Origin: Candidatus Aminicenantes bacterium
GTDB lineage: Bacteria; Acidobacteriota; Aminicenantia; Aminicenantales; Saccharicenantaceae
Direction of reading: 5' to 3'
Assembly (NCBI GenBank): GCA_963807525.1
Contig: CAWECI010000025.1
Location: 95,056 to 159,055, forward strand
Length of the DNA: 64,000 nucleotides
Shown here: one piece after another, positions 41,344-46,562 of the stretch
How positions within the stretch are numbered: position 1 is the first letter of the stretch
Layout of the letters: each line of letters opens with the position of its first letter
Program-made: the position numbers and the translations under genes
Notes under the pieces: generated by a model
Told to the model about the DNA's origin: nothing
Seen by the model: only the letters and a program-made list of their open reading frames with translations
Databases searched by the model: none

Positions 41344-42381
41344 TCAGTCGCAGACGAAGCCGTGCTTTTCGAAATACTTCTGATGGTATTCTTCGGCCTT
41401 GTAGAACGCAGAGGCCGGGACAAGCTCGGTGGCCAGGCGCTTCTTGAAACGACCCGACTTCGAGACTTCGTCCCTGACCTTCAGGGCCGCTTCCTTCTGG
41501 GCCTCGCCGTGATAGAAGATGGCCGACCGGTACTGGGTGCCGCGGTCGGGTCCCTGCCTGTTGACCTGAGTCGGGTCGTGGAGCTCGAAGAAGCGCCTGA
41601 CGAGATCGGCATAGCTGATCTTGGCCGGGTCGAAGGTGACCTGGACGGCCTCGGCGTGGCCCGTTTTGTCGGTGCAGACCTCTTCGTAGGTCGGCGCGAC
41701 CGTATGTCCCCCCGTGTACCCGACGACGGTGGACACGACGCCGGGTATCTGACCCAGCTTGTGCTCGACTCCCCAGAAACAGCCGGCGGCGAAGGTCGCG
41801 ACCTCAGTCGCCGCCGTCGCCGTCTTGGGGGCGGCCGCGGCGTCGGAGGCCGCCGCCTCGGGTTTGAAGTCGAGCGAGGCCGAATTCACGCAATAGTGAA
41901 CGAAGGTCGGCTCGGGGCCGTCATCGAAAACGTGGCCCAGATGAGCGCCGCAGACCGCGCAGCGGACCTCGATCCTTTTCGCCAGCAGCGAATAATCGTC
42001 CTTGTATTCCAGGTTCTTCTCGTCGGCCGGGGCCGTGAAGCTCGGCCAGCCGGTGCCGTGCTCGTACTTGGCCTCGGAACGGAAAAGGGGCGTGCCGCAA
42101 CCGGCGCAGACATAGACGCCCTTATCCCAGAAATCGTTGTATCGGCCGGTGAACGGCCTTTCCGTATTGCACTTTCGCATGACCTCGAACCGTTCCGGGG
42201 TCAAGGCGGCCTTCCATTCCTTTTCGGACTTCCTGATTTTCTGAGCCATCTGGCGTCCTTCCCGGGAGGCGTGGACGACGAGCCGCGGGTCCGTGCCGGC
42301 GAGGGCGTTAAGGGCCCGCCAGCCGGCGAAGCCGAGGAGCGTCGCCGCCGCGAAGATGACGATCTTGACCCTGAGGGGCAC
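41344..42381 (-). CDS. msrAB: Bifunctional methionine sulfoxide reductase MsrB-MsrA with N-terminal anchor
   Basis: CAGC/CAVC zinc sites, HLGHVFDDGP, YCVNS; FAAGCFWGVE, GYTGG, GHAEAV, AEEYHQKY. Confidence 0.94.
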   Translation of the reverse strand: MPLRVKIVIFAAATLLGFAGWRALNALAGTDPRLVVHASREGRQMAQKIRKSEKEWKAALTPERFEVMRKCNTERPFTGRYNDFWDKGVYVCAGCGTPLFRSEAKYEHGTGWPSFTAPADEKNLEYKDDYSLLAKRIEVRCAVCGAHLGHVFDDGPEPTFVHYCVNSASLDFKPEAAASDAAAAPKTATAATEVATFAAGCFWGVEHKLGQIPGVVSTVVGYTGGHTVAPTYEEVCTDKTGHAEAVQVTFDPAKISYADLVRRFFELHDPTQVNRQGPDRGTQYRSAIFYHGEAQKEAALKVRDEVSKSGRFKKRLATELVPASAFYKAEEYHQKYFEKHGFVCD

Positions 42382-42506
42382 TCACGTCTCCGTTCCCTGA
42401 ATTCCTACTAAAATAGTATACATTAGGCCGGCTAAAAAGCAAGTTGCCCCCCCGCCCCCGCCCCCTGATCCGGCCCGGGAAATTTCCTAAATTGGACACT
42501 TTAGGA

Positions 42507-42536
42507 TTGACAAGACCAAAAAAGCGGCCCTATAAT
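42507..42536 (+). promoter_or_regulatory. Consensus sigma70 promoter with no downstream sense CDS
   Basis: TTGACA-N18-TATAAT. Confidence 0.7.
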
Positions 42537-42542
42537 GAAAAC

Positions 42543-42656
42543 GCTGGCTGGAGAGGGATCCTCCTTAGCCCCGCTTCCTTTTCCTTTGAAACCTTGGCGC
42601 CTCACCAGCCAGCCTTCCGATCTCACCCCATCAGGCTGGCCCGCAGGCGCCTTTTC
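42543..42656 (+). ncRNA. Candidate structured sRNA
   Basis: Begins at the predicted +1; GCTGGCTGG(42543-51) pairs with CCAGCCAGC(42605-13); anti-SD-like CCTCCTTA in a pyrimidine-rich loop; alternative stem 42608-15/42633-40. Confidence 0.4.
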
Positions 42657-42658
42657 CC

Positions 42659-45588
42659 CTAGTTGGATTTCTGCGCGGCGTCCTTCTTCGGGGCGGTTTC
42701 GGCCGGCCTCAAGCCCTTGGCCCGTTCCTTGAGATAGTCCTTGAGCTCGAGGTAGGGGACGCCGTCGGTCTACCAGTCCGGCGCCGGCTTGCCCATGAGG
42801 TAGTGGTCGAAGAACTCCTTCATCCGCACGGTGTAGTCCTTCTGGTTGGCCGGCTTCTGCAGGCCGTGGTTCTCGCCGACGTATTCGAGCATGACGACCG
42901 GCTTCTTGAGCCGGCGCAGCGTGTTGTAGTATTCGATGCCCTGGTTCCAGACGACCGCGCCGTCCTTGTCGTTGTGCAGGATGATGAGCGGCGTGCTTGA
43001 CCCGCTCGGCGTAGTAGACCGGCGAGTTGCGCTGGTAGGCCTCGAGGTTGTCCCAGTAGCCGCCCTTGAACCGGCCCTGGCTCGATTCGAAGATGGGCTG
43101 GTTGGCCGAGCCGGAGTTGAAGTAGATCGAGCTGTACATGCTGATCATGTTGGTCAGCGGCGCCCCGGCCACGGCCGCGGCGAAGTCGGCCTGGGTGACG
43201 AGGAACGCCGTCTGGTAGCCGCCCCAGGAGTGGCCCTGGAGCCCGACCTTGGAGCGGTCGACGACGCCCGCGGCCACGGCCGCGTCGATCGCCGGCAGGA
43301 CGCACCAGACGGCCGACATGCCCGGGTCGTTGATCTTGTAGGTGATGTCCGGCATGAGCACGGCGTAGCCGTTGCTCGTGTAGACCGACTTGTTGAAGCC
43401 GTTGGCGGAGGGCTGGGCGTACCGGTTGAGCTGCTGGGACATCTTCTCGTAGAAATAGACGATCGTCGGGTAACTCTTGCCCTTCTCGTAGTTGGCGGGC
43501 AGGAAGAGGGCGGCCTGGAGCGGCTTGTCCAGGCCGCTCTTGGGATCCGTCTTGTAGTCGAGGAGCATGGACCCGCTCGACCACAGGAAGTCCTTCTGCT
43601 GGGGGTTGGCCTCGGTCAGGCGCCGGCCGTTCCCGAGCCCGGCGTCCGCGGCGTAGTAATCGGGATAGTCCTTGTAGGTGTCGCGGGTGTAGAGATAGAC
43701 GTCGGCCTTCTTGGCCTTCATCAGGCCGCCGAAGCCGGCGTCGTCCCAGAGGAGAAGGGTCGGGGCCGTCCGGCCCTTGTCGAGCCGGGCGAAGCCCGCC
43801 TTCTTCGTCCATTCGCCGTAGACGCCGAAGTACTGGGGCTGGGCGAGGTCGATGGCCTTCTCCTCGGGATCGAGGCGCAGGCCGCCGGTAGCGGAGCTTG
43901 TCCTTGAAGCCGTTCCCGGTCAGGTTGACGGCCTTGCCGGTCCCGCCGACGGGGACGTTCCAGACGTCCCAGCCGTCCGAGAGGAGCACGTTCAGGCCGT
44001 CCTTGGTCCAGCCGACCGGATAGTCGGGCGGCTTGACGACGTTGTGGTCGTCCTCCTCGTTGACGAACGAGGCCGGCACGTCCTTGGTGATGTTGATCGA
44101 ATGCTCGGCCGCCATGTCGAAGGTGTAGAAATGGCCGTCGTCGTAATAGAGGAAGTGGGCCCCGTCGAAGAGCGGCATGAACATGTAGCGGCACTTCTTC
44201 AGGGCCAGCGTCCGCTTGCCCGTCTTCATGTCGATGACATAGACGTCCGAGTAGTTGCGGCCGTCGAGGTTGCCGTCGAGCTCGTAGGCCCGGACGTCCT
44301 GGCCGATGGCGAACCGGTCCTTGGGCGCGGGCTCGACCTCGCGGACGTCGTCGTCGGCCAGCCGGATGAATTTTTTTTCGTCGACCCGGTATTCGGCCAG
44401 ATAGCTGAAGATTTGTCCGCGTGCTCCTCCACCTGCTGCTCGGACTGGAGGCGCTTGTCCTGGCCATGCCAGATGACCAGGTCGGGCATGTCCTCGTCGG
44501 CGATCTCGTCGTTCTTCGGAGCCGGCCGCGGCCGGGCCCTCCGGACCGGTCTTGGCGGCGTCCGGTCCCTTGGCCTCGGCGTCCTTCTTCTTCTTGGCCT
44601 CGTGGATGCCGAAGAGAACGGCGTCGAAGCTCTCGGTCCACTCGGGCGCCCGGTCCGGGCTGACGGCCATCCCGGCCGGGAAGGTCTTGTCGGCGGCCGG
44701 GTCGTAGACGATCTTGCGGGGCCCCGCGGGGTCCTTGAAGCCGCTGAAGGCGACGACGCTCCAGAGCTTGTCCTCGAAGGCCTTGTCTTCCTTGCCTTTG
44801 AGGACGGCCAGGGCTTCGCCCTTTTCCGACCAGGCCAGGGATTTGTACGAGGCCTTGTCGTCGTCCAGGGAGACGACCGAGCCGGAGCGCATGTCCCGGA
44901 GCTCGAGGCCGTTGCCCGCCTGGCCCAAGGCGTCGATGACCAGGGCCAAGTGGGCGCCCGGCTTGTCGAACGCGTATTCGGCGACGTTGCCGATATTGAC
45001 CTCTTTTCCCGAAGCGAGCTCGCGAAGCAGGAGGTCCGAGCCCGTCCACTTGTCCTTTTCCTTGTCCTGGCTCTCCGGGGCGTAGCGATGGAGGGCCGCA
45101 TAGCCCGGGTTTTCGCCCGAGAAGTCCAGTCCGCGGACCTTCTCGAATTCGGTCTTGGCCCCCGTGGCCAGGTCGACCAGCACGGCCGTCGTCTGGACCC
45201 TCTTCTTGTCCTTGCGCAGGGCCTTCATGTCCTTGGAGCCCGGGTAGGACAGGAACGCGGCCCATTTCGAATCCGCGGAGAAACCCGTCCGCAGGGGCGC
45301 GCCGTAGCGCGGCGCCTCGCCGATCGGGAACCGGTATTCCTTCGTCCCGGCGACCTGGCGCACGACGATCTCGCTCTCTCCCTCGAGCGGGCTCGTCCGG
45401 TACATGAACCAGGTCCCGTCGGGGGAGAGCTCGGCCGCGCCGATCGACTTCCAGGCCAGGATGTCCTGGAGCGCGACGGGGCGCGGGCCGGCCGGTTTGT
45501 CGCCGGCCTTGTCCTGGGCGGCGAGGAGGAGGCCGGCGAAGAGACAAGCGATGACGAGGAGGAGGAGAACGTTGCGGAGTTTGCTCAT
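42659..45588 (-). pseudogene. S9 family (prolyl oligopeptidase-like) exported peptidase, four indels plus an in-frame TAG (real decay or assembly error)
   Basis: Signal peptide; GHSWGG (Ser), HNDKDGAV (Asp), GENHG (His) spread across frames; shifts near 44521, 44412, 43881, 42995; TAG at 42770-72. Confidence 0.85.
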
Positions 45589-46562
45589 AGGGGTGTTCCT
45601 TGTCGTTCCTTTTTTCGTTTTTCCTGATACATCAAGAAATCGGCGTGGGACAGGAAGTCATCGAGCTGCTGGTATTTCTGGGGATCGATGCGCACCAGGC
45701 CCATGCTGATCGACAGCCTCAAGCGCGGATAGTCCTTGAGGTGGAAGGCCGCGACGCCTTCGTCGATGCGGGCCGGCAGCCCGCGCTCGCCCTGCCCCTT
45801 CGAGCGCATGGCCAGGACGGCGAACTCGTCGCCGCCGATGCGCCCGATGACGTCGGATTCGCGCAGGGTCGTCCGGAGGATCATGGCCACGCCTTTCAAG
45901 AGGAGATCGCCGACGGCGTGGCCGTACGTGTCGTTGACCTCCTTGAGGTTGTCGATGTCCAGAAAGACCAGGTAGTTGTCGTTCTTGATGCGCTTGGCGA
46001 TCTTCATCTGCTGGAGGCCGAAGGAATAGAAGCCGCGGCGGTTGTTGAGCCCGGTCAGATGGTCGGTCAGCGACAGGCCCTCGAGCTTCTCGTTGCTCAG
46101 CTGCAGCTTCCGCAGGGCCAGCTGCAGCCGCCGCTCGGTCGTCTTCCGGTCCGTGATGTCGAGGAGGATCCCGTCGAAATGGCGGGTCACCCCGTCGGGG
46201 CCGCAGATCCGGCGGCTGTGGTCGCGGACCCAGAGCTTCTTGCCGTCCCGCTGGCGGAGCTCGTACTCCTGGACGGCCGTCGATTGCTCCTTCAGCTTGG
46301 CCATGTGCTCCCGCCGGTCCTCGGGGCGAACGTAGAACTCCCTGACCTCGTGCGAGTGGAGATCTTTGGGGTCCTCGAAGCCGAGCATGCGGGCCAAGAC
46401 GGCGTTGGCCTCGACGATCCGGCCTCCCGGCGTCGTCCGGTAGACCCCGACCGGGAGCTGTTCGACGAGGGCCCGGTAACGGTCCTCGCCGTCATGACCT
46501 GTGGATGCGGCCGGCCGGCGGGCCCGCCGCCCGGGGGACTGGGAGGGATCGCGGGTGCTCAT
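45585..46562 (-). CDS. PAS + GGDEF diguanylate cyclase
   Basis: PAS IVEANAVLARMLG; DHLTGLNNRR, FLDIDNLKEVNDTYGHAVGD, RIGGDEF. Confidence 0.92.
   Translation of the reverse strand: MSTRDPSQSPGRRARRPAASTGHDGEDRYRALVEQLPVGVYRTTPGGRIVEANAVLARMLGFEDPKDLHSHEVREFYVRPEDRREHMAKLKEQSTAVQEYELRQRDGKKLWVRDHSRRICGPDGVTRHFDGILLDITDRKTTERRLQLALRKLQLSNEKLEGLSLTDHLTGLNNRRGFYSFGLQQMKIAKRIKNDNYLVFLDIDNLKEVNDTYGHAVGDLLLKGVAMILRTTLRESDVIGRIGGDEFAVLAMRSKGQGERGLPARIDEGVAAFHLKDYPRLRLSISMGLVRIDPQKYQQLDDFLSHADFLMYQEKRKKERQGTPL

What the first reader, a model, noticed from the sequence alone, without database searches (positions are those of the whole stretch)
42507..42656. Consensus promoter driving a structured, anti-Shine-Dalgarno-bearing RNA with two mutually exclusive folds
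Seen: TTGACA-N18-TATAAT points at no sense gene. The predicted +1 (G42543) is the first base of a 9-bp stem (plus GAGG/CCTC) closing a C/U-rich loop with GGATCCTCCTTA, close to the 16S 3' tail GGAUCACCUCCUU. GCCAGCCT(42608-15) can instead pair with AGGCTGGC(42633-40), followed by CCTTTT. The RNA converges on the S9 peptidase stop. Inference: a trans-acting sRNA that masks RBSs, or a switchable antisense RNA.
Basis: partly seen in the sequence, partly recalled or inferred. Interest (0 to 1): 0.65.

Follow-up and report, generated by a model that had tools for sequence, protein, structure and literature searches.

The report
Conserved small RNA targeting PilZ-like mRNA
The gap holds a real gene for a small RNA of about 75-115 nt, uncatalogued and nearly invariant across the uncultured order Aminicenantales; its C/U-rich interior pairs with, and has co-evolved with, the ribosome-binding site of a small PilZ-like protein gene elsewhere in the genome, so it is a new example of a familiar kind of regulator, with its target identified.

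Summary
A perfect TTGACA-N18-TATAAT promoter (42507-42536) is followed, starting at the predicted +1, by a 72-nt module (42543-42614) closed by a 9-bp stem. A hairpin plus U-tract follows and reuses the stem's 3' arm.

It is a real gene. The module is 83-99% identical in 45 of 60 relatives. A covariance model finds it in 161 of 301 genomes of the class, and every confident hit lies in one order. Of 121 distinct loci, 109 keep a sigma-70 promoter at the same place, while the neighbouring genes vary. Rfam has no such family.

The decisive result concerns the target. The C/U-rich interior is complementary to the 5'UTR and RBS of a small PilZ-like gene on another contig (about 27 nt plus the first codons in this genome). 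The only variable stretch of the RNA co-varies with that UTR in at least five lineages, giving perfect 16-23-nt duplexes; 0 of 5000 permutations do as well. Seven of eleven genomes without the RNA have at most 9 nt of complementarity.

It is most likely a trans-acting, RBS-masking sRNA. The 16S-like GGAUCCUCCUUA is less conserved than the seed, and the alternative fold is lineage-specific. This is a new family with a known mechanism.

The parts
42493..42502 (+). TGGACACTTT box upstream of the -35, conserved in most loci of this genus (UP-like element or regulator site; function unknown)
   Evidence: Upstream sequences of same-genus loci
42507..42512 (+). -35 hexamer TTGACA
   Evidence: TTGACA or TTGACT sits at the equivalent place in 104 of the 109 loci with a good promoter
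42531..42536 (+). -10 hexamer TATAAT (18-nt spacer)
   Evidence: 72 of 121 distinct loci score 12/12 and 109 score at least 9/12; the spacer is 18 nt in 93
42543..42614 (+). Conserved 72-nt sRNA core, starting at the predicted +1
   Evidence: 83-99% identity in 45 of 60 relatives, including six other families; CM R1 hits in 161 of 301 genomes of the class; at least 120 contigs carry the exact 26-mer; no Rfam match
42543..42551 (+). 5' arm of closing stem P1 (GCUGGCUGG)
   Evidence: 95.9% of cells paired; one compensatory G-C to A-U change; otherwise invariant
42605..42613 (+). 3' arm of P1 (CCAGCCAGC); here also part of the 5' arm of the terminator hairpin
42553..42556 (+). GAGG, which pairs either with CCUC 42600-42603 (extending P1) or with the local CCUC 42560-42563
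42556..42567 (+). GGAUCCUCCUUA, the 16S-tail-like (anti-SD-like) stretch. In this genus it is complementary to codons 1-6 of the PilZ-like mRNA
   Evidence: It is replaced in f3 g31 and f5
42569..42600 (+). Seed: CCCCGCUUCCUUUUCC plus the variable linker UUUGAAACCUUGGCGC. It is complementary to the 5'UTR/RBS of the PilZ-like gene (own genome contig C21:95790-95815, outside the window)
   Evidence: best non-self site in the genome; intermolecular covariation; cofold ddG -35.2 against -7.0 +/- 3.0 for shuffles
42596..42655 (+). Lineage-specific terminator: GGCGCC...GCCAGCCU / AGGCUGGC...GGCGCC followed by UUUU
   Evidence: Present in most same-genus loci and absent from most other lineages
42661..42663 (-). 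Stop codon (TAG) of the convergent S9 peptidase reading frame

Best explanation
This is the gene of a trans-acting, base-pairing small RNA. A consensus sigma-70 promoter starts transcription at about G42543. The RNA ends either at the genus-specific hairpin and U-tract (about 42655, giving about 113 nt) or, in other lineages, at U-rich sequence right after the closing stem (about 75-85 nt). A 9-bp closing stem (plus GAGG/CCUC) presents a roughly 40-nt pyrimidine-rich interior. That interior pairs with the short 5'UTR, the Shine-Dalgarno region and, in this genus, the first codons of the mRNA of a 121-aa PilZ-like protein encoded elsewhere (contig C21:95821-96186). Occluding the ribosome-binding site most likely represses translation, and possibly destabilises the mRNA. 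Shown by computation: the gene, its promoter, its conservation, the complementarity and its co-evolution with the target. Inferred: that the RNA is made, that the duplex forms in cells, and the sign of the effect (repression).
For: The promoter is a 12/12 match and is kept at the same position in 109 of 121 distinct loci, whatever the sequence between the hexamers. The core is 83-99% identical in 45 of 60 relatives, across six other families, and is found by the CM in 161 of 301 genomes of the class, with all confident hits in the same order. Neighbouring genes vary, and the next downstream ORF is mostly on the opposite strand. There is no conserved ORF, because linker lengths differ by non-multiples of 3. 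In the own genome, the best non-self complement of the interior is the PilZ-like gene's 5'UTR, GCGCCAAG-UUUCGAAGGAAAAGGAAG, 5 nt before the AUG, together with AUGCUGAGCAGGAUC. The cofold ddG is -35.2 kcal/mol, against -7.0 +/- 3.0 for shuffled targets. The site is present in eight other same-genus genomes. Intermolecular covariation: sRNA CCUUAAAAACC goes with UTR GGUUUUUAAGG (22-23 nt perfect; Saccharicenans G103, G105, G127, G130). CCUUUGAAA goes with UUUCAAAGG (21 nt; G115, G135). CCUUGAAAC goes with GUUUCAAGG (21 nt; G121). CCUUUUUC goes with GAAAAAGG (18-20 nt; G148, G158, G190, G210). UUUUCUAAA goes with UUUAGAAAA (16 nt; G143). Shuffling the RNA-UTR assignment among 40 genomes never reached the observed complementarity (0 of 5000). 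Co-absence: the closed genome G057, and G044, G038, G046, G047, G048 and G040, lack the RNA and have at most 9 nt of complementarity at the orthologous RBS. A divergent Hfq homologue is present in 29 of 31 genomes, including this one.
Against: Structural covariation for the closing stem is almost nil, with one compensatory pair, because the RNA hardly varies. Several genomes that have the RNA show only 7-10 nt at the gene taken as orthologue (f4 G039/G053, G051, G059, G220, G251, G270, G162, G107). Two genomes that have the site (G042, G056) and two with 10-11 nt of it (G054, G055) lack a detectable copy of this RNA; for G042/G056 assembly gaps are possible, since G252 of the same genus has the RNA. 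The near-invariance of about 40 nt across an order exceeds what one target of 14-23 nt explains, so other partners probably exist. The permutation test does not correct for relatedness.
Confidence: 0.75

Rival explanations
1. The RNA and the pairing are as described, but the outcome is activation or stabilisation of the PilZ-like mRNA, for example by protecting its 5' end or opening an inhibitory structure, rather than repression.
For: The complementarity starts practically at the predicted 5' end of a very short UTR. A duplex there could protect against 5'-end-dependent decay.
Against: The duplex covers the Shine-Dalgarno region in all lineages, and the first codons in this genus. That geometry is the one typical of repression. 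The 70-nt target segment folds only weakly on its own (-16.6 kcal/mol), so there is little structure to open.
Confidence: 0.1
2. The RNA chiefly acts through a protein or the ribosome: a decoy that mimics the 16S 3' tail or a pyrimidine-rich ligand and titrates a factor. On this view, pairing with the PilZ-like mRNA is secondary.
For: About 40 nt are near-invariant, more than one mRNA target explains. GGAUCCUCCUUA resembles the genome's own 16S tail GGAUCACCUCCUUUC. The closing stem is invariant and is shared with sibling RNAs whose interiors differ.
Against: The 16S-like stretch is the part that is lost in f3 g31 and f5, while the seed is kept. The variable linker tracks the mRNA, as expected for RNA-RNA pairing. 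No candidate protein partner was identified.
Confidence: 0.08
3. The element is a cis feature of its neighbours: the minus-strand terminator of the S9 peptidase gene, or an antisense or roadblock element for it. On this view the + strand promoter is fortuitous.
For: An S9-like peptidase is the convergent downstream neighbour in 49 of about 112 loci. The hairpin at 42596-42651 folds on both strands.
Against: The module and its promoter recur at loci with other neighbours. The promoter is kept in 109 of 121 loci. The minus strand has no U-tract after the hairpin, and no terminator-like site was called there. Most of the conserved sequence lies outside the terminator hairpin.
Confidence: 0.03
4. 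The two loci share a DNA element (a protein-binding site or a short inverted repeat homogenised by gene conversion). The match then has no RNA-level meaning.
For: In this genus the match reads like an inverted copy about 45 nt long with a central mismatch patch.
Against: At both loci the shared sequence lies inside the predicted transcripts and in antisense orientation. In other families only 14-23 nt remain, centred on the RBS. No third copy exists in the genome.
Confidence: 0.03

Closest known systems
Cuckoo RNAs / alpha-r14 family (CcsR1-4/RSs0680 of Rhodobacter, NfeR1 of Sinorhizobium)
   Same: Both are trans-encoded sRNAs with their own promoter and terminator. Both display an ultraconserved pyrimidine-rich, anti-Shine-Dalgarno-like motif in unpaired regions, predicted to occlude ribosome-binding sites (PMC4615179, PMC10746234).
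   Different: Cuckoo RNAs have 2-4 adjacent hairpins, each with CCUCCUCCC in its loop, and stems that vary freely. They occur in Alphaproteobacteria. Here there is one long-range stem around a roughly 40-nt interior, the stem itself is invariant, the motif is different (CCCCGCUUCCUUUUCC), and the lineage is Aminicenantales. No Rfam family matched even at E up to 10.
RsaE/RoxS of Bacillales (Rfam RF01820) and other C-rich-motif sRNAs of Firmicutes
   Same: Both are highly conserved sRNAs whose unpaired C-rich stretches pair with G-rich Shine-Dalgarno regions (own knowledge).
   Different: There is no sequence or structure match. The seed here is C/U-rich rather than a CCCC motif, and the phylum is different.
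RepG of Helicobacter pylori (own knowledge: Pernitzsch et al. 2014)
   Same: In both, a C/U-rich loop pairs with a purine-rich stretch in the 5'UTR of one conserved signalling gene, and the target stretch varies between strains.
   Different: RepG pairs with a homopolymeric G repeat whose length tunes regulation. Here a mixed A/G sequence at the RBS co-varies with the sRNA linker. The two are not homologous.
3' tail of 16S rRNA (anti-Shine-Dalgarno)
   Same: GGAUCCUCCUUA against GGAUCACCUCCUUU of the genome's own 16S.
   Different: The match needs a 2-nt deletion. This stretch is not conserved in all lineages that carry the RNA, and the genome's own 16S tail is intact, so nothing needs replacing.

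Membership tests
Trans-encoded base-pairing sRNA (RBS-masking class) | Independent transcription unit: own promoter, no sense gene served | tested here: met
   12/12 sigma-70 promoter, conserved at the same position in 109 of 121 loci. The downstream gene is convergent here, and neighbours vary elsewhere. This is in silico evidence only.
Trans-encoded base-pairing sRNA (RBS-masking class) | Transcript detected with defined 5' and 3' ends | not testable with these tools
Trans-encoded base-pairing sRNA (RBS-masking class) | Non-coding: no conserved ORF | tested here: met
   The linker length varies by 1-8 nt, not in multiples of 3, the 3' parts are unrelated between families, and the only + strand ORFs begin upstream of the +1.
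Trans-encoded base-pairing sRNA (RBS-masking class) | Accessible seed complementary to the translation-initiation region of an mRNA encoded elsewhere | tested here: met
   The seed is largely unpaired in both predicted folds. There is about 27 nt of complementarity plus codons 1-6 to the PilZ-like mRNA on contig C21.
Trans-encoded base-pairing sRNA (RBS-masking class) | Pairing maintained in evolution (compensatory changes between sRNA and target) | tested here: met
   Five linker variants are each matched by the cognate UTR. The permutation test gave 0 of 5000. This is not corrected for phylogeny.
Trans-encoded base-pairing sRNA (RBS-masking class) | Chaperone (Hfq/ProQ) dependence | tested here: inconclusive
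   A divergent Hfq-family gene is present (28.9 bits against a cut-off of 27; own genome C9:123032-123190; found in 29 of 31 relatives). Binding cannot be tested here.
Cuckoo / alpha-r14 sRNAs | 2-4 adjacent hairpins, each with the loop motif CCUCCUCCC (PMC4615179) | tested here: not met
   The motif is absent from the sequence. The fold is a single long-range stem. There was no Rfam hit.
Any Rfam 15 family | Covariance-model score at or near the gathering threshold | tested here: not met
   The only match at E up to 10 is mir-550 (16.8 bits against 81), a chance match to the stem. At gathering thresholds the whole window gave only a tRNA.
Intrinsic terminator of the minus-strand S9 gene | GC-rich hairpin followed by a U-run on the minus strand, directly after the stop codon | tested here: not met
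   No minus-strand terminator-like site was found. On the minus strand the hairpin is followed by AAGGUUUCAAAGG.
PilZ domain (target protein) | Pfam PF07238 match above the gathering score | tested here: inconclusive
   The own protein gave no hit. Three orthologues score 20.1-21.4 bits against a cut-off of 22.5. A paralogue in the same cluster scores 26.1 bits and is 37% identical to the target protein. The protein is therefore called 'PilZ-like' only.

The most novel reading that the evidence does not exclude
The RNA may be more than a one-target repressor. On this reading it is an order-wide, nearly invariant hub RNA that arose as an antisense copy of the translation-initiation region of a PilZ-like (c-di-GMP-effector-like) gene. 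Its invariant closing stem, shared with sibling RNAs that carry other C/U-rich interiors, would be the docking platform for an unknown partner such as the divergent Hfq. The 16S-tail-like stretch would then give it a second, global action on Shine-Dalgarno sequences.
Probability: 0.12. Interest if true: 0.7.

Novelty: new member of a known kind. Interest (0 to 1): 0.55.

Why it matters
Aminicenantes (OP8) have no cultured representative, and a full-text search found no paper on their small RNAs. This is an RNA regulator with a named target, supported by co-evolution between two unlinked loci, which is about the strongest evidence sequence alone can give. It links post-transcriptional control to a conserved cluster of PilZ-like proteins and a LuxR-type regulator, hinting at control of a c-di-GMP-type output in these sediment and digester bacteria. 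The family could be added to Rfam, where it would annotate hundreds of metagenome-assembled genomes. The mechanism itself is conventional.

Tried and rejected
(1) Known RNA families: Rfam at E up to 10 on 3 kb and at gathering thresholds on the whole window gave nothing relevant. ARAGORN called no tRNA or tmRNA here.

(2) Replacement of a missing 16S tail: the genome's own 16S ends normally.

(3) A second copy or paralogue in this genome: none was found. A look-alike at C15:96207 is an ordinary GGATCC-centred terminator hairpin.

(4) BLAST hits to GCTGGCTGGAG in genomes lacking the RNA: all seven that carry the motif lie in sequence that reads as protein-coding, and none has the closing arm of the stem.

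(5) A second target: an aldo-keto reductase gene (C26:7386) has 13 nt of seed complement at its RBS. Its same-genus orthologues do not keep the site, and other families lack a close orthologue, so it was rejected as a conserved target. The other genes of the PilZ cluster have at most 8 nt.

The Pfam Hfq model later did find a divergent Hfq, so the earlier negative was a sensitivity failure.

(7) Structural covariation: too little variation to prove the closing stem.

Full report
WHAT IS THERE. The finding lies in the 279-nt gap between two minus-strand genes: msrAB (41344-42381; PMSR and SelR domains) and an S9-type peptidase whose frame ends with TAG at 42661-42663. The + strand carries the only promoter-like site of the region, TTGACA-N18-TATAAT at 42507-42536, a 12/12 match against 0.1 expected from shuffles. 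Seven bases after the -10, G42543 opens GCUGGCUGG. This pairs with CCAGCCAGC at 42605-42613, and GAGG/CCUC extends the helix. The helix encloses a roughly 40-nt pyrimidine-rich interior that includes GGAUCCUCCUUA (42556-42567). Downstream, GGCGCC...GCCAGCCU (42596-42615) can instead pair with AGGCUGGC...GGCGCC (42633-42651), followed by UUUU. For the 114-nt RNA this alternative fold is the minimum-energy fold (-43.3 kcal/mol, against -36.5 with the closing stem enforced).

IT IS A CONSERVED GENE. The window comes from a metagenome-assembled genome of Candidatus Aminicenantes (65% G+C). BLAST of 166 nt around the feature found a homologue of the module in 45 of 60 relatives. Identity was 83-99% within the genus. 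It was still 84-96% over exactly the 72-nt module (42543-42614) in six other families of the order. Nearly all carry Aminicenantes, Acidobacteriota or placeholder labels (one is labelled Clostridiales). A covariance model (R1) hit 161 of 301 genomes sampled across the class. Every confident hit is in the same order, and the one hit outside it is weak and lies in GC-rich sequence of a different kind. Some genomes carry two or three copies; this one has a single copy. Among 32 distinct core sequences, about 40 consecutive nucleotides (GCUGGCUGGAGAGG..AUCCUCCUUAGCCCCGCUUCCUUUUC) and the 3' part (AAACCUUGGCGCCUC..CAGCCAGC) are invariant or nearly so. Only a short linker between them varies in length and sequence. 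The 26-mer retrieval inflates this invariance. However, the BLAST- and CM-based sets agree, and they add divergent forms in one genus of family f3 and in family f5.

STRAND AND ENDS. Of 121 distinct loci with enough upstream sequence, 109 have a sigma-70-type promoter scoring at least 9/12 at the equivalent place, and 72 of them score 12/12. The spacer is 18 nt in 93 loci. The -10 ends 6 nt before the first G of the module in 65 loci and 11 nt before it in 22. The sequence between the hexamers is not conserved between families. This is the signature of selection on a promoter, and it fixes the strand. After the closing stem, 43 of 122 loci have a U-tract within 14 nt. In those lineages the closing stem with its U-tail is probably the terminator. 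The separate hairpin seen here is missing from several loci of this genus (L016, L019, L023, L024, L026, L088) and from most other lineages. The next downstream ORF is on the opposite strand in most loci. An S9-like peptidase is the convergent neighbour in 49 of about 112 loci, and the other neighbours are unrelated. The RNA is therefore neither the leader of a downstream gene nor merely the peptidase terminator. The minus strand has no U-run after the hairpin, and no terminator-like site was called there. No conserved ORF exists. Rfam 15 has no match: the only hit at E up to 10 is a chance mir-550 alignment to the stem. No paper in the library joins Aminicenantes and small RNAs.

THE TARGET. 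Recurrent 24-27-nt BLAST hits in many same-genus genomes led to the 5'UTR of a conserved small gene, in antisense orientation to the RNA. In the own genome this gene is at contig C21:95821-96186 and encodes 121 aa. Its upstream sequence reads GCGCCAAG-UUUCGAAGGAAAAGGAAG-ucgau-AUGCUGAGCAGGAUC. The reverse complement of the RNA interior reads GCGCCAAGGUUUCAAAGGAAAAGGAAG-cggg-GCUAAGGAGGAUC. This is by far the best non-self site in the genome. Cofolding gives a net gain of -35.2 kcal/mol after unfolding both partners. Shuffled targets give -7.0 +/- 3.0, and random genomic 70-mers give -5.2 +/- 3.3.

THE TARGET PROTEIN. The protein has no Pfam hit of its own. Three orthologues score 20-21 bits on the PilZ model, against a cut-off of 22.5. 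A paralogue 1.5 kb downstream passes the cut-off at 26.1 bits and is 37% identical to the target protein. The cluster reads: PilZ-like, PilZ-like, LuxR/GerE-type regulator, PilZ, coaE.

CO-EVOLUTION OF THE RNA AND THE TARGET. Orthologues of the gene were fetched from 50 genomes of nine families, and their start regions were compared with the RNA of the same genome. The invariant seed CCGCUUCCUUUUCC faces GGAAAAGGAAGCGG a few nucleotides before the AUG in families f1, f2, f3, f6 and f7. The variable linker of the RNA is mirrored in the UTR:
- CCUUAAAAACC with GGUUUUUAAGG: 22-23 nt of perfect duplex in four Saccharicenans genomes.
- CCUUUGAAA with UUUCAAAGG: 21 nt.
- CCUUGAAAC with GUUUCAAGG: 21 nt.
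- CCUUUUUC with GAAAAAGG: 18-20 nt.
- UUUUCUAAA with UUUAGAAAA: 16 nt.

Cognate pairs beat non-cognate ones in 30 of 40 genomes. No permutation out of 5000 of the RNA-UTR assignment reached the observed total. The test does not correct for shared ancestry, but at least five different variants are involved. Seven genomes in which neither BLAST nor the model finds the RNA have at most 9 nt of complementarity at this RBS; they include the closed genome G057. Two exceptions, G042 and G056, have a congener that carries the RNA. The fit is not universal. Family f4 and a few other genomes carry the RNA but show only 7-10 nt at the gene taken as orthologue.

HOW IT MOST LIKELY WORKS. The RNA is made from a strong promoter. 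Its closing stem, or in this genus a 5' hairpin plus terminator, leaves the seed single-stranded in either predicted fold. The seed pairs with the whole short 5'UTR, the Shine-Dalgarno region and, here, codons 1-6 of the PilZ-like mRNA. This geometry blocks 30S binding, so repression is the expected outcome. That step is inference. A divergent Hfq homologue is present in 29 of 31 genomes, so chaperone help is possible. It is therefore not the core of the function. In family f1 it lines up with AGGAGGAU in the first codons of the target. The alternative fold is lineage-specific, and nothing indicates a conserved switch.

WHAT REMAINS OPEN. The closing stem is supported by conservation of complementarity (95.9% of cells paired) and by energy, but by only one compensatory change. 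The degree of invariance suggests further partners. One candidate second target, an aldo-keto reductase, is not conserved.

COMPARISON AND VERDICT. In mechanism this is closest to the anti-Shine-Dalgarno sRNAs of Alphaproteobacteria, the cuckoo / alpha-r14 / NfeR1 RNAs (PMC4615179, PMC10746234), and to C-rich sRNAs such as RsaE/RoxS. It is not a member of those families: the defining motif and architecture are absent and no covariance model matches. Two first-stage notes of this scan flagged what is evidently the same RNA in other genomes, and another report describes a different conserved sRNA family in the same order. Those notes served as leads only. The verdict is a new sRNA family of a known kind, with an unusually well-supported computational target.

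Noticed in passing
window 42661-45590 (minus strand): The S9-type peptidase gene is read in three frames, with about four frame changes (near 44500, 44400, 43885 and 42990) and an in-frame TAG at 42770-42772. Homologues in other genomes are continuous across these points. It is either a pseudogene or carries indel errors from a long-read assembly.
   Followed up: partly
own genome contig C21, about 95730-95765; also L168, L170, L175, L176, L186 and others: Upstream of the PilZ-like target gene, every family keeps an inverted repeat of the form TCACCCC-N12-14-GGGGTGA. It abuts TTGACC and is followed by a conserved GGCATTnTAG box. This is probably an operator overlapping the -35, so the target is also under transcriptional control by an unidentified regulator.
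   Followed up: no
L238 (G300), L240 (G196), L243 (G055), L244 (G048), L245 (G059): These are sibling RNAs with the same closing stem, GCUGGCUGG...CAGCCAGC, and at least two (G300, G055) have a readable upstream promoter. Their C/U-rich interiors differ (for example CCCUCCGUUUUCCCCUCCUUUCCCUCCUUUC). They occur mostly in genomes that lack the main type. This suggests a wider superfamily built on one stem.
   Followed up: partly
window 42493-42502: A TGGACACTTT box lies 4-5 nt upstream of the -35 and is conserved in most loci of this genus. Other families have A/T-rich sequence there.
   Followed up: no
window 42557-42562 and 42596-42601: Two self-complementary hexamers, GGAUCC and GGCGCC, lie in the invariant parts of the RNA. 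They could support RNA dimers, or they may be coincidental.
   Followed up: no
own genome contig C9:123032-123190 (minus strand): A divergent Hfq-family gene scores 28.9 bits, against a cut-off of 27. tblastn with E. coli and B. subtilis Hfq missed it. It is present in 29 of 31 genomes of the order.
   Followed up: partly
own genome contig C21:95821-98050: The cluster holds three small PilZ-like genes around a LuxR/GerE-type regulator whose N-terminal region gave no Pfam match. It lies between proS and coaE. Only the first gene carries the sRNA site.
   Followed up: partly
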